A DNA stretch of 64,000 nt from Octopus sinensis (taxonomy: Eukaryota), in contig NC_043005.1 in the NCBI RefSeq assembly GCF_006345805.1, positions 102,796,001 to 102,860,000 on the forward strand, written 5' to 3'. This document shows, in pieces, positions 22,135 to 23,626 of the stretch (position 1 is its first letter; every line of letters starts with the position of its first letter). The position numbers were made by a program.

Positions 22135-22203
<69 letters not shown>

Positions 22204-23626
22204 TTTGCAATTAAGGACAACTACTTAATAAGGAAAACTTAACAAGAAATTGTCAGGTAGATAGCGTAAAAACCTCATAAGAGAAAATTTCGAAAATAAT
22301 TATTTCTTATTGAACATATTAATTTATATATAGAGGGCATAATTATACATACATGCCAGGAGGCATTATATATACACGCCAAACGCTAAGAGGGACAATC
22401 AGTCATTTCTACCAAAATATTACTAATCCCACCGAATGCAACTTTTCAAAGTAAGACATTTAAAAATATAGGCCTGTATCACAGTGATTCATACTTACGT
22501 AATCATCAGCAGGCCTGAATGTATTATAAATAAACAACGACCCTGCCTCGCTTAAGCCGAACAGCTAACTGATCAACATCAACGAAGCACATGGGTGAGT
22601 TTATATATATTACATCCGGGTGAATGGCAGACTTTTACAAAATTGCATTTCGGGAGAGGAAAAGTTTTTTCGGAATAAAAATTTTGCAATTAAGGACAAC
22701 TACTTAATAAGGAAAACTTAACAAGAAATTGTCAGGTAGATAGCGTAAAAACCTCATAAGAGAAAAAATTTCGAAAATAATTATTTCTTATTGAACATAT
22801 TAATTTATATATAGAGGGCATAATTATACATACATGCCAGGAGGCATTATATATACATGCCAAACGCTAAGAGGGACAATCAGTCATTTCTACCAAAATA
22901 TTACTAATCCCACCGAATGCAACTTTTCAAAGTAAGACATTTAAAAATATAGGCCTGTATCACAGTGATTTCATACTTACGTAATCATCAGCAGGCCTGA
23001 ATGTATTATAAATAAACAACGACCCTGCCTCGCTTAAGCCGAACAGCTAACTGATCAACATCAACGAAGCACATGGGTGAGTTTATATATATTACATCCG
23101 GGTGAATGGCAGACTTTTACAAAATTGCATTTTACAATAATTATTTTCGAAATTTTTTCTCTTATGAGGTTTTTACGCTATCTACCTGACAATTTCTTGT
23201 TAAGTTTTCCTTATTAAGTAGTTGTCCTTAATTGCAAATTTTTTATTCCGAAAAAACTTTTCCTCTCCCGAAATGCAATTTGTAAAAGTCTGCCATTCAC
23301 CGGATGTAATATATATAAACTCACCCATGTGCTTCGTTGATGTTGATCAGTTAGCTGTTCGGCTTAAGCGAGGCAGGGTCGTTGTTTATTTATAATACAT
23401 TCAGGCCTGCTGATGATTACGTAAGTATGAAATCACTGTGATACAGGCCTATATTTTTAAATGTCTTACTTTGAAAAGTTGCATTCGGTGGGATTAGTAA
23501 TATTTTGGTAGAAATGACTGATTGTCCCTCTTAGCGTTTGGCATGTATATATAATGCCTCCTGGCATGTATGTATAATTATGCCCTCTATATTATAAATT
23601 TATATATATATATATATATATTAATA

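What the first reader, a model, noticed from the sequence alone, without database searches (positions are those of the whole stretch)
22201..23600. Young hammerhead-ribozyme tandem element with a circularly permuted inverted copy: candidate octopus retrozyme / circular RNA
Seen: two nearly identical head-to-tail ~480-bp non-coding units followed by an inverted copy. The inverted copy spans the unit 1/unit 2 junction, so its template was already multimeric or circular. The block sits between (TA)n tracts, and each unit has a type I HHR (7-bp stem I, CUGAUGA/GAAA core, GUAA-capped stem II, AUA site); the unit 1 copy lacks one A of GAAA. Established: Penelope-like elements carry type I HHRs in their pseudo-LTRs and make tandem and 5'-inverted insertions, and metazoan non-LTR retrozymes are tandem HHR repeats that yield circular RNAs. 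Inference: a minus-strand transcript of an intact dimer would self-cleave to a 481-nt monomer (22477-22957) that could circularise and be retrotransposed by a PLE reverse transcriptase. I do not recall such a family being characterised in cephalopods, but I cannot check this.
Basis: partly seen in the sequence, partly recalled or inferred. Interest (0 to 1): 0.85.

Follow-up and report, generated by a model that had tools for sequence, protein, structure and literature searches.

The report
Hammerhead-ribozyme repeat inserted in a TA microsatellite
A young, non-coding 481-base repeat with a hammerhead-like self-cleaving RNA motif sits in a (TA)n tract as two oppositely oriented arms, the layout Penelope-type retrotransposition leaves, so it is probably a cephalopod member of the known animal "retrozyme" class rather than a new kind of element.

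Summary
A 932-bp head-to-tail arm (1.94 units of 479/481 bp, 99% identical) is followed after 3 bases by an inverted arm of 465-470 bp. The inverted arm crosses the unit junction, and the block lies between (TA)n tracts. Each copy carries a type I hammerhead-like motif; unit 1 lacks one A of GAAA.

- Helix II starts with a U.U mismatch.
- Rfam finds no hammerhead at gathering score. The best match is HH9 at 17.4 bits against a cut-off of 52, and only in an 86-nt query.
- The catalytic fold is not the predicted minimum-energy fold.
- My own relaxed descriptor gave 0 equally good hits in 300 simulated windows.

Geometry: the ribozyme-sense strand of each arm has its 3' end at a (TA)n flank, and the two 5' ends meet head to head. 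This is the published Penelope-like-element (PLE) insertion signature, which includes priming on both target strands.

The unit is non-coding, 33% GC and strongly self-paired as a circle (z = -6.5). No RT or GIY-YIG ORF lies in the window.

Best reading: a PLE-mobilised non-LTR retrozyme in an octopod-like genome, a new member of a known kind. This locus cannot itself release a monomer. Copy number, cleavage and circles are untested.

The parts
22128..22200 (.). Left flank, (TA)36 microsatellite; presumed half of the target tract
   Evidence: TRF, (period 2, 36.5 copies, 94% matches). The tract is absent from the unit 1/unit 2 junction, so it is not part of the unit.
22201..22679 (-). Unit 1 (479 bp), the 3'-terminal unit of arm A in ribozyme sense. 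It carries 3 private changes, including the loss of one A of GAAA.
   Evidence: It differs from unit 2 by a 2-nt A-run indel at 22283, C/T at 22377 and a 1-nt deletion at 22487.
22680..23132 (-). Unit 2, 453 of 481 bp, truncated at its 5' end in ribozyme sense. It carries the majority state at all 7 variable sites.
   Evidence: Homology to unit 1 stops after 23132.
22951..22998 (-). Intact hammerhead-like motif of unit 2. Predicted cleavage is between 22958 and 22957.
   Evidence: Descriptor hit; cleavage position.
22470..22516 (-). Defective hammerhead-like motif of unit 1 (GAA instead of GAAA). The nominal cleavage site is 22477/22476.
   Evidence: The descriptor does not find it.
22477..22957 (-). 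Nominal 481-nt monomer between the two cleavage sites. It is 33% GC; its circular MFE is -127.9 kcal/mol with 64% of bases paired.
   Evidence: z = -6.5 against 150 dinucleotide shuffles. The longest open frame is 44 codons.
23133..23135 (.). 3-nt filler at the head-to-head junction of the two arms
   Evidence: These bases match neither arm.
23136..23605 (+). Arm B, the inverted and circularly permuted copy. In unit coordinates it runs from u106 back to u1, then from u481 back to about u118-123. That is 465-470 of 481 nt, with 4 private changes. Its 3' end merges into (TA)n.
   Evidence: Exact identity ends at 23592, and homology is traceable to 23600-23605.
23403..23450 (+). Intact hammerhead-like motif of arm B. 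Predicted cleavage is between 23443 and 23444.
   Evidence: Rfam Hammerhead_HH9 scores 17.4 bits (gathering 52) at 23401-23458 in an 86-nt search.
23588..23697 (.). Right flank, imperfect (TA)n; presumed other half of the target tract
   Evidence: TRF, (period 2, 57.5 copies, 80% matches).

Best explanation
The block is one recent insertion of a non-autonomous, non-coding 481-nt repeat element that carries one type I hammerhead-like motif per unit. In other words, it is a non-LTR retrozyme or PLE-derived satellite-like element, in a cephalopod (octopod-like) genome. It was inserted into a (TA)n microsatellite by the machinery of a Penelope-like element.

Shown directly by the sequence:
- There are two arms of opposite polarity.
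- The ribozyme-sense 3' end of each arm abuts (TA)n.
- The two 5' ends meet head to head with 3 filler bases.
- Both arms cross a unit junction.
- The 3' ends of the two arms fall at different phases of the unit (about u1 and about u118-123). Both lie in A/U-only stretches.

Inferred mechanism:
1. A GIY-YIG endonuclease cut both strands of the AT-rich target.
2. Each 3'-OH primed reverse transcription at an internal A/U-rich site of a multimeric or circular retrozyme RNA.
3. The two cDNAs were joined in the middle by end joining.

The element's life cycle is inferred from the family, not from this locus. Tandem copies would be transcribed, the hammerheads would cut out 481-nt monomers, a host ligase would circularise them, and a PLE reverse transcriptase would copy them.

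This particular locus is probably a dead-end offspring copy. Its minus-strand dimer has one intact and one defective ribozyme, and the plus strand has a single ribozyme, so no monomer can be excised here.
For: Architecture and identities.

Polarity and cleavage sites.

(TA)n on both sides is non-random: 91 of 62,588 placements of an equal-sized block have it.

Motif specificity: the relaxed type I descriptor gives 2 hits with stem I >= 5 in the real window, both in this block. In 300 Markov-1 simulated windows it gave 0 hits with stem I >= 7 and 4 hits in total with stem I >= 5. In an 86-nt Rfam search the best family is a hammerhead (HH9), with the core aligned as I drew it.

Unit properties:
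- non-coding, longest open frame 44 codons;
- 33% GC, and strongly structured as a circle, z = -6.5;
- no tRNA-like part.

Literature read:
- PLEs form partial tandems with an inverted 5'-truncated copy next to the upstream end, and prefer (TA)n (Craig 2021, PMC8557442, passages).
- A purified PLE protein cleaves AT-rich DNA, extends both top and bottom strands, initiates internally on the RNA, and is proposed to use multi-copy RNA (Frangieh 2024, PMC11167929, main text).
- Metazoan retrozymes are tandem repeats with type I hammerheads, low GC and self-paired circRNAs, with PLEs as the candidate mobilisers (Cervera & de la Pena 2020, PMC7229834, sections 14, 15, 17).
- A U.U at the base of helix II exists in the axolotl HHR_Amex2, which still cleaves 22% in 1 h.
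- PLEs are annotated in octopus genomes (PMC13282606 and PMC8967140, passages).
Against: - There is no hammerhead hit at Rfam gathering score in the window (0 matches). There is also none among the 6 matches with E <= 10 in 22100-23700. The only hit scores 17.4 bits against a cut-off of 52.
- Helix II has a U.U mismatch at 10.1/11.1 and only 3 pairs. The catalytic fold (-11.0 kcal/mol) loses to an alternative fold (-13.0) in which core UGAU pairs with AUCA.
- My descriptor was relaxed after I had seen the motif, so its statistics are post hoc.
- The three copies are near-identical, so there is no covariation evidence.
- Only one locus is visible. There is no other copy in 64 kb, and no eukaryotic genome collection was on hand, so mobility, copy number and a PLE partner are unproven.
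- No RT or GIY-YIG domain was found in 43 of 43 ORFs of >=110 codons.
- The unit (481 nt) is longer than the ~170-400 nt quoted for invertebrate retrozyme circles.
- The 30-40-bp PLE 'tail' was not recognised.
- The two start sites lie in A/U stretches resembling the target, unlike the non-homologous initiation reported for the anole PLE.
Confidence: 0.6

Rival explanations
1. Local DNA-level rearrangement. A short tandem (satellite-like) repeat that happens to carry a hammerhead relic was partly inverted or fold-back duplicated in place. This could happen by replication template switching or by recombination provoked by the hairpin-prone (TA)n tracts. No retrotransposition event would have created the two arms.
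For: - (TA)n tracts are abundant here: 86 perfect (TA)>=8 tracts covering 3.7% of the window. Established knowledge holds that such tracts are prone to rearrangement.
- The 3-nt junction is also what template switching or end joining leaves.
- There is only one locus, so no proof of mobility.
Against: - A simple inversion inside a tandem array does not reproduce the layout. The arm A end (u453) would have to be contiguous with u454, but the far end of the inverted segment is u118-123. The other breakpoint (u106) would have to have abutted (TA)n. At least two further deletions are therefore needed (coordinates).
- A snap-back copy would be symmetric about the junction, and it is not (u453 against u106).
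- Both outer ends being ribozyme-sense 3' ends at an AT-rich target is exactly the PLE signature.
Confidence: 0.15
2. The repeat is an unrelated mobile or satellite element, for example a foldback or MITE-like repeat. On this reading the hammerhead resemblance is a decayed relic or a coincidence with no catalytic role. The element would then not work through self-cleaved or circular RNA.
For: - 0 Rfam hammerhead hits at curated thresholds.
- The U.U mismatch and short helix II; the catalytic fold is not the MFE.
- One of the three copies is already broken.
- Frangieh 2024 found ribozyme cleavage unnecessary for PLE insertion in vitro.
Against: - All 11 invariant core positions (C3, U4, G5, A6, G8, A9, G12, A13, A14, A15.1, U16.1), the non-G cleavage nucleotide A17 and the three helices in type I order are present in 2 of 3 copies.
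- There were 0 comparably good chance hits in 300 simulated windows.
- No terminal inverted repeats or Helitron-type ends are visible at the block borders (my reading, with the Helitron end motifs recalled from memory).
- The same U.U variant is active in axolotl.
Confidence: 0.12
3. Assembly artefact: reads from several dispersed or tandem copies were mis-joined at low-complexity (TA)n, creating a false dimer plus inversion.
For: - Craig 2021 notes that complex PLE tandem and inverted insertions often cause problems in shotgun assemblies (passage).
- The window holds a 100-N gap at 38485-38584, so the assembly is not gap-free.
Against: - The three copies differ from one another at 7 sites in a star-like pattern.
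- The junctions at 22679/22680 and 23132-23136 lie in unique sequence, not in (TA)n.
- The layout is the one expected biologically.
Confidence: 0.08

Closest known systems
Metazoan non-LTR retrozymes (Cervera & de la Pena 2020, NAR; coral, mussel, axolotl)
   Same: - Head-to-tail repeats of a few hundred bp with one type I hammerhead per unit.
- Low GC (33% here against <45%).
- No coding capacity.
- Monomer RNA predicted to be highly self-paired.
- Co-occurrence with PLEs in the host lineage.
- A U.U at the base of helix II, as in axolotl HHR_Amex2.
   Different: - The unit of 481 nt is above the ~170-400 nt given for invertebrate circles.
- Only 1.94 tandem units plus an inverted arm are seen.
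- Helix III is longer (4 bp plus a 3-nt loop) than the 1-2 bp described as typical.
- No loop 1-loop 2 contacts were identified.
- Expression, cleavage and circles were not tested.
Penelope-like elements (Penelope/Poseidon, Neptune, Naiad) and their pseudo-LTR insertions
   Same: - Partial tandem.
- Inverted 5'-truncated copy head to head with the upstream end.
- (TA)n or AT-rich target.
- A hammerhead in the repeated part.
- The layout predicted by cleavage and extension of both target strands, with internal initiation on multi-copy RNA.
   Different: - There is no RT/GIY-YIG ORF. The whole repeat unit is 481 bp, so this is not an autonomous PLE or its pLTR pair.
- The ribozyme is not the PLE 'minimal' type, which has helix II of 6-8 bp and almost no helix III.
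- No 30-40-bp tail was recognised.
- The start sites resemble the target, unlike the anole PLE.
L1 twin priming
   Same: The two 3'-OH ends of a cut target each prime cDNA synthesis, giving two oppositely oriented segments joined internally.
   Different: In twin priming both segments come from adjacent parts of one RNA. Here the phases (u453 against u118-123) are not adjacent. Each arm also crosses a unit junction, which points to separate multimeric or circular templates.
Newt/salamander satellite 2 and Schistosoma Sm-alpha hammerhead repeats (recalled; newt repeats also described in PMC7229834 section 15)
   Same: Tandem genomic repeats of about 330 bp with type I hammerheads, transcribed and self-cleaved to monomers.
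   Different: Those occur as long arrays with canonical cores that Rfam models recognise. Here there is a single short locus with a sub-canonical helix II.

Membership tests
Hammerhead ribozyme, type I | Conserved core C3-U4-G5-A6-N7-G8-A9 ... G12-A13-A14, A15.1-U16.1 pair, non-G at position 17 | tested here: met
   Present in 2 of 3 copies (22951-22998 minus strand, 23403-23450 plus strand). The third copy (22470-22516) lacks one A of GAAA.
Hammerhead ribozyme, type I | Three helices around the core with the open end in helix I | tested here: met
   Helix I is 7 bp, helix II is 3 bp capped by GUAA, and helix III is 4 bp with a CUG loop. The alignment to Rfam HH9 gives the same layout.
Hammerhead ribozyme, type I | Watson-Crick pair at 10.1-11.1, at the base of helix II | tested here: not met
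   U.U mismatch, flagged as non-canonical in the cmscan alignment. A natural precedent with reduced activity is axolotl HHR_Amex2.
Hammerhead ribozyme, type I | Score at or above the curated Rfam gathering threshold for a hammerhead model | tested here: not met
   0 matches at gathering score in 64 kb. No hammerhead among the 6 matches with E <= 10 in 1.6 kb. HH9 scores 17.4 bits against 52 in 86 nt.
Hammerhead ribozyme, type I | Site-specific self-cleavage | not testable with these tools
   In silico only: the catalytic secondary structure is -11.0 kcal/mol against an MFE of -13.0.
Metazoan non-LTR retrozyme | Head-to-tail tandem repeat, one type I hammerhead per unit, no LTR/PBS/PPT | tested here: met
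   1.94 units with a period of 479-482 bp and one motif per unit. The descriptor finds the unit 2 motif; the defective unit 1 motif was located by eye and by the pattern.
Metazoan non-LTR retrozyme | Unit of about 150-450 bp, GC below 45%, non-coding | tested here: inconclusive
   GC is 33% and the longest open frame is 44 codons, so both are met. The length of 481 bp is slightly above the quoted range.
Metazoan non-LTR retrozyme | Monomer RNA highly self-paired | tested here: met
   Circular MFE is -127.9 kcal/mol against -89.1 +/- 5.9 for 150 dinucleotide shuffles, z = -6.5, with 64% of bases paired. This is a prediction only.
Metazoan non-LTR retrozyme | Many dispersed genomic copies; expression as linear and circular monomers | not testable with these tools
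   No further copy in the window. No eukaryotic genome or transcriptome collection was available.
Penelope-like element (autonomous) | ORF with telomerase-like RT plus GIY-YIG endonuclease | tested here: not met
   0 of 43 stop-to-stop ORFs of >=110 codons in the window match RT or GIY-YIG Pfam models at E <= 0.01. Shorter or frameshifted remnants were not searched.
Penelope-like element insertion signature | Partial tandem, plus an inverted 5'-truncated copy at the upstream end, in an AT-rich or (TA)n target | tested here: met
   Arm polarity and junctions; flanks. The feature definition comes from Craig 2021 passages and Frangieh 2024 main text.
Penelope-like element insertion signature | Optional 30-40-bp 'tail' at one end | tested here: inconclusive
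   No extra unit-derived extension is recognisable at either border. The two arms end about 117-122 nt apart in unit phase, which is not the described tail length.

The most novel reading that the evidence does not exclude
The locus may be a direct genomic footprint of reverse transcription around a covalently closed 481-nt ribozyme circle in a cephalopod. Three observations fit this:
- Arm B runs uninterrupted through the ribozyme cleavage site and the unit junction.
- Arm B stops 11-16 nt short of exactly one turn. This is where a polymerase on a monomeric circle would meet its own start.
- Arm A stops about 30 nt short of two turns, from a different start phase.

Together with the head-to-head polarity, the locus would then record two things in vivo: circRNA-templated retrotransposition, and priming on both target strands by a PLE enzyme. 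The second has so far been shown only in vitro, for an anole element.
Probability: 0.15. Interest if true: 0.6.

Novelty: new member of a known kind. Interest (0 to 1): 0.35.

Why it matters
If the family is confirmed genome-wide, it would extend hammerhead retrozymes to cephalopods. In the library I could search, hammerheads in cephalopods appear only as a count of Rfam hits in the giant squid genome.

It would also give a clean, young, single-event example of the two-arm insertion predicted by the in vitro behaviour of a PLE enzyme. The arm phases bear on whether the template is a circle or a multimer.

The locus also shows that curated covariance models miss such variants, so cephalopod hammerhead counts may be underestimates.

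It does not open a new class of element.

Tried and rejected
- **Rfam at curated thresholds.** The search found nothing in the window. A permissive search of 22100-23700 gave only spurious microRNA and sRNA matches. These include MIR8007 at 23089-23314, 26.9 bits against a cut-off of 195, which is simply the hairpin formed by the two arms.
- **Tandem Repeats Finder.** It did not report the 481-bp period.
- **Other copies in the window.** blastn with word size 9 found none. The remaining hits are 17-39 nt with E >= 0.007.
- **An autonomous PLE nearby.** I then scanned all 43 stop-to-stop ORFs of >=110 codons against Pfam instead. There was no RT, GIY-YIG, integrase or transposase domain.
- **SINE-like origin.** ARAGORN found no tRNA-like sequence.
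- **A second ribozyme of opposite polarity.** None was found at E <= 10.
- **Helitron or foldback reading.** I rejected this from the block ends seen. The Helitron end motifs are recalled from memory, not from any call.
- **Simple inversion and snap-back models.** Both were rejected on arm phase.
- **Same-molecule twin priming.** The phases are not adjacent, so it is not supported.
- **Protein Atlas search of the neighbouring ORF.** It gave only weak leads, with scores of 0.82 or less.
- **Not used.** The genome-contig collection holds only bacteria and archaea. Copy number in the source genome and in other cephalopods therefore stayed unchecked.
- **Supplements.** Supplementary files of the papers were not opened. 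The species lists in the supplements of Cervera & de la Pena 2020, Craig 2021 and Li et al. 2026 could name cephalopod hammerheads or retrozymes that I could not see.
- **Prior description in print.** I base this on the paper search, which cover open-access PMC and bioRxiv only. None returned a paper characterising a cephalopod retrozyme.
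Full report
**Observation.**
After (TA)36 at 22128-22200 come the following parts:
- Unit 1, 22201-22679.
- Unit 2, 22680-23132. Direct-repeat segments are spaced 479-482 bp apart at 99-100% identity. 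The blastn alignment covers 453 nt at 99.1%.
- Three bases that match neither arm, 23133-23135.
- An inverted copy from 23136 to about 23600-23605, which runs into an imperfect (TA)n at 23588-23697.

The inverted copy pairs with 22640-22785 (146 nt, 99%) and with 22809-23101 (293 nt, 100%). In unit coordinates (u1 = 22201 or 22680) it runs from u106 back to u1, then from u481 back to about u118-123. That is 465-470 of 481 nt, circularly permuted and crossing a unit junction. Tandem Repeats Finder did not list the 481-bp period. No other copy lies in the 64 kb.

The (TA)n flanks are not a background effect. Perfect (TA)>=8 tracts cover 3.7% of the window. Only 91 of 62,588 placements of a 1,400-bp block have such a tract within 5 nt on both sides. 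The unit 1/unit 2 junction has no (TA)n, so the tracts are target sequence and not part of the element.

**The ribozyme motif.**
On the minus strand of units 1 and 2 and on the plus strand of the inverted copy, the sequence reads as follows:
- a 7-bp helix I;
- CUGAUGA;
- helix II made of a U.U mismatch plus three pairs, capped by GUAA;
- GAAA;
- helix III of 4 bp with a CUG loop;
- A17, then the 3' strand of helix I.

Cleavage would fall at 22958/22957, 22477/22476 and 23443/23444. The unit 1 copy has GAA instead of GAAA, which removes an essential core position.

Against a clean call:
- Rfam finds nothing at gathering score in the window.
- Rfam finds no hammerhead among 6 matches with E <= 10 in 22100-23700.
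- Only an 86-nt query returns Hammerhead_HH9, at 17.4 bits against a cut-off of 52, E = 0.028 for that tiny search. The U.U is flagged as non-canonical.
- In a 48-nt fold, the catalytic secondary structure (-11.0 kcal/mol) loses to an alternative fold (-13.0) that pairs core UGAU with AUCA.

For the call:
- My own type I descriptor requires the core, the A15.1-U16.1 pair, non-G at position 17, helix III of >=3 bp, and helix II of >=3 bp with one mismatch allowed at its base.
- It finds exactly two hits with helix I >= 5 bp in the real window, both in this block.
- In 300 Markov-1 simulated windows it gave 0 hits with helix I >= 7 bp and 4 hits in total with >= 5 bp.
- The descriptor was relaxed after I had seen the motif, and the copies are too alike for covariation, so this is good but post hoc evidence.
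- The same U.U at the base of helix II is described for the axolotl HHR_Amex2, which cleaves 22% in an hour as a monomer and better as a dimer (PMC7229834 section 15).
- The helix III segment is nearly palindromic and could pair between two copies (-10.1 kcal/mol). This is the dimer mode described for animal hammerheads (PMC4209133 passages).

**The unit.**
- It is 33% GC.
- It has no open frame longer than 44 codons, even across the junction.
- It has no tRNA-like part.
- As a circle, its predicted energy is -127.9 kcal/mol against -89.1 +/- 5.9 for 150 dinucleotide shuffles, z = -6.5, with 64% of bases paired. The antisense strand gives z = -5.3.

The three copies differ at seven sites in a star pattern. 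Three changes are private to unit 1, four are private to the inverted arm, and none is private to unit 2. This fits one recent event followed by a few mutations or copying errors.

**Geometry and mechanism.**
Taking the ribozyme strand as sense, arm A (22201-23132, 932 nt, 1.94 units) is sense on the minus strand, with its 3' end at the left (TA)n. Arm B is sense on the plus strand, with its 3' end at the right (TA)n. The two 5' ends face each other across 3 filler bases.

This is the layout expected if both 3'-OH ends of a cut AT-rich target prime reverse transcription and the two cDNAs are then joined. It matches two published descriptions:
- PLE insertions are described as a partial tandem with an inverted 5'-truncated copy next to the upstream end, with (TA)n as a preferred target of Naiad and Neptune PLEs (Craig 2021, passages).
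- A purified anole PLE protein cleaves AT-rich DNA, extends both top and bottom strands, and starts internally on its RNA. The authors propose that this RNA holds several element copies (Frangieh 2024, main text).

Both arms cross a unit junction, and arm B runs through an uncut ribozyme site.

The two 3' ends lie at different phases (about u1 and about u118-123). Both are inside A/U-only stretches that resemble the target. This suggests microhomology-assisted priming, which is an inference. It differs from the non-homologous initiation seen with the anole enzyme.

Three alternative origins fit worse:
- An inversion inside a tandem array needs at least two further deletions.
- A snap-back copy would be symmetric, but the junction joins u453 to u106.
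- Same-molecule twin priming would make the phases adjacent, which they are not.

**Consequence for this locus.**
A minus-strand transcript contains one intact and one defective ribozyme, and a plus-strand transcript contains one. No monomer can therefore be excised here. The locus looks like an offspring copy, not a master. A transcript across the whole block would fold into a near-perfect hairpin of about 460 bp (inference).

**Surroundings and host.**
None of the 43 stop-to-stop ORFs of >=110 codons matches RT, GIY-YIG or any transposase model, so no autonomous partner is visible in the window.

The largest ORF (28064-29314, 416 codons, weak CCHC knuckle) has only 2 database relatives. The better one is an uncharacterised Octopus sinensis protein at 62% identity over 66% of the query. 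The window is therefore plausibly from an octopod, though not shown to be from that species.

**Comparison with what is known.**
[quoted passage not shown] They are expressed as self-paired circles, were shown in a coral, a mussel and the axolotl, and have PLEs as the proposed mobilisers (PMC7229834). A 2026 preprint argues from vertebrate genomes that they derive from PLE pLTRs (abstract and passages).

PLEs are annotated in octopus and squid genomes. The giant squid paper lists 235 Rfam hammerhead hits without analysis. Five literature searches returned no paper that characterises a cephalopod retrozyme. The supplements, which may list species, were closed.

The finding therefore fits a known class and a known insertion mechanism. 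What is specific here:
- the host lineage;
- the 481-nt unit, slightly long for the class;
- a hammerhead variant that curated models miss;
- an unusually legible two-arm insertion.

**Boldest reading not excluded.**
Arm B stops 11-16 nt short of one full turn, and arm A about 30 nt short of two turns. On a monomeric circle a polymerase would meet its own start near there. On a linear multimer the truncation points would be arbitrary. This was noticed post hoc from one locus, and arm A would need strand displacement after its first turn, so I give it a low probability.

**Verdict.**
The best explanation is a PLE-mobilised hammerhead retrozyme insertion in a (TA)n tract (confidence 0.6). Catalysis, circles and family size are unproven. 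It is a new member of a known kind, of moderate-to-low interest.

Noticed in passing
window 28064-29314 (+): A 416-codon open frame in a GC-richer stretch (0.458 for 28-30 kb) with a weak CCHC zinc-knuckle match (E = 0.0065, below the Pfam cut-off). It has only 2 database relatives: an uncharacterised Octopus sinensis protein (62% identity, 66% coverage) and a K02A2.6-like integrase-bearing protein that matches 11% of the query. It looks like a gag-like retroelement ORF. No RT ORF follows it.
   Followed up: partly
whole window; e.g. 21013-21087, 21302-21460, 23995-24023, 24184-24249: Very high density of (TA)n microsatellites: 86 perfect (TA)>=8 tracts covering 2,354 of 64,000 bases. If PLE-type enzymes prefer (TA)n, this genome offers abundant targets.
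   Followed up: partly
window 22201-23605: A read-through transcript of the whole block, on either strand, would form a near-perfect hairpin of about 460 bp. The arms are 293 nt at 100% and 146 nt at 99%. This makes it a potential dsRNA substrate for RNA editing or small-RNA pathways (inference only). The weak Rfam MIR8007 match at 23089-23314 (26.9 bits against 195) is this hairpin, not a microRNA.
   Followed up: no
window 38485-38584: A run of 100 N, which is an assembly gap or mask. It was left untouched.
   Followed up: no
window 39682-39811: A (CTT)44 microsatellite. It probably contributes to the strong negative GC and AT skew of the 38-40 kb bin.
   Followed up: partly
window 21875-21946: Adjacent (AAT)14.7 and (AAG)10 microsatellites, about 180 bp upstream of the left (TA)n flank.
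   Followed up: no
window 22328-22380 (and the same part of unit 2 and of the inverted arm): Inside the unit there are two adjacent short hairpin-like segments of similar sequence (GGCAT...ATGCC, then GGCAT...GCC) with TA-rich loops. They lie next to the A/T-only stretch where arm B ends. Their role is unknown.
   Followed up: no
window 24027-24072: A 22-bp unit repeated 2.1 times (95% matches) between two (TA)n tracts.
   Followed up: no
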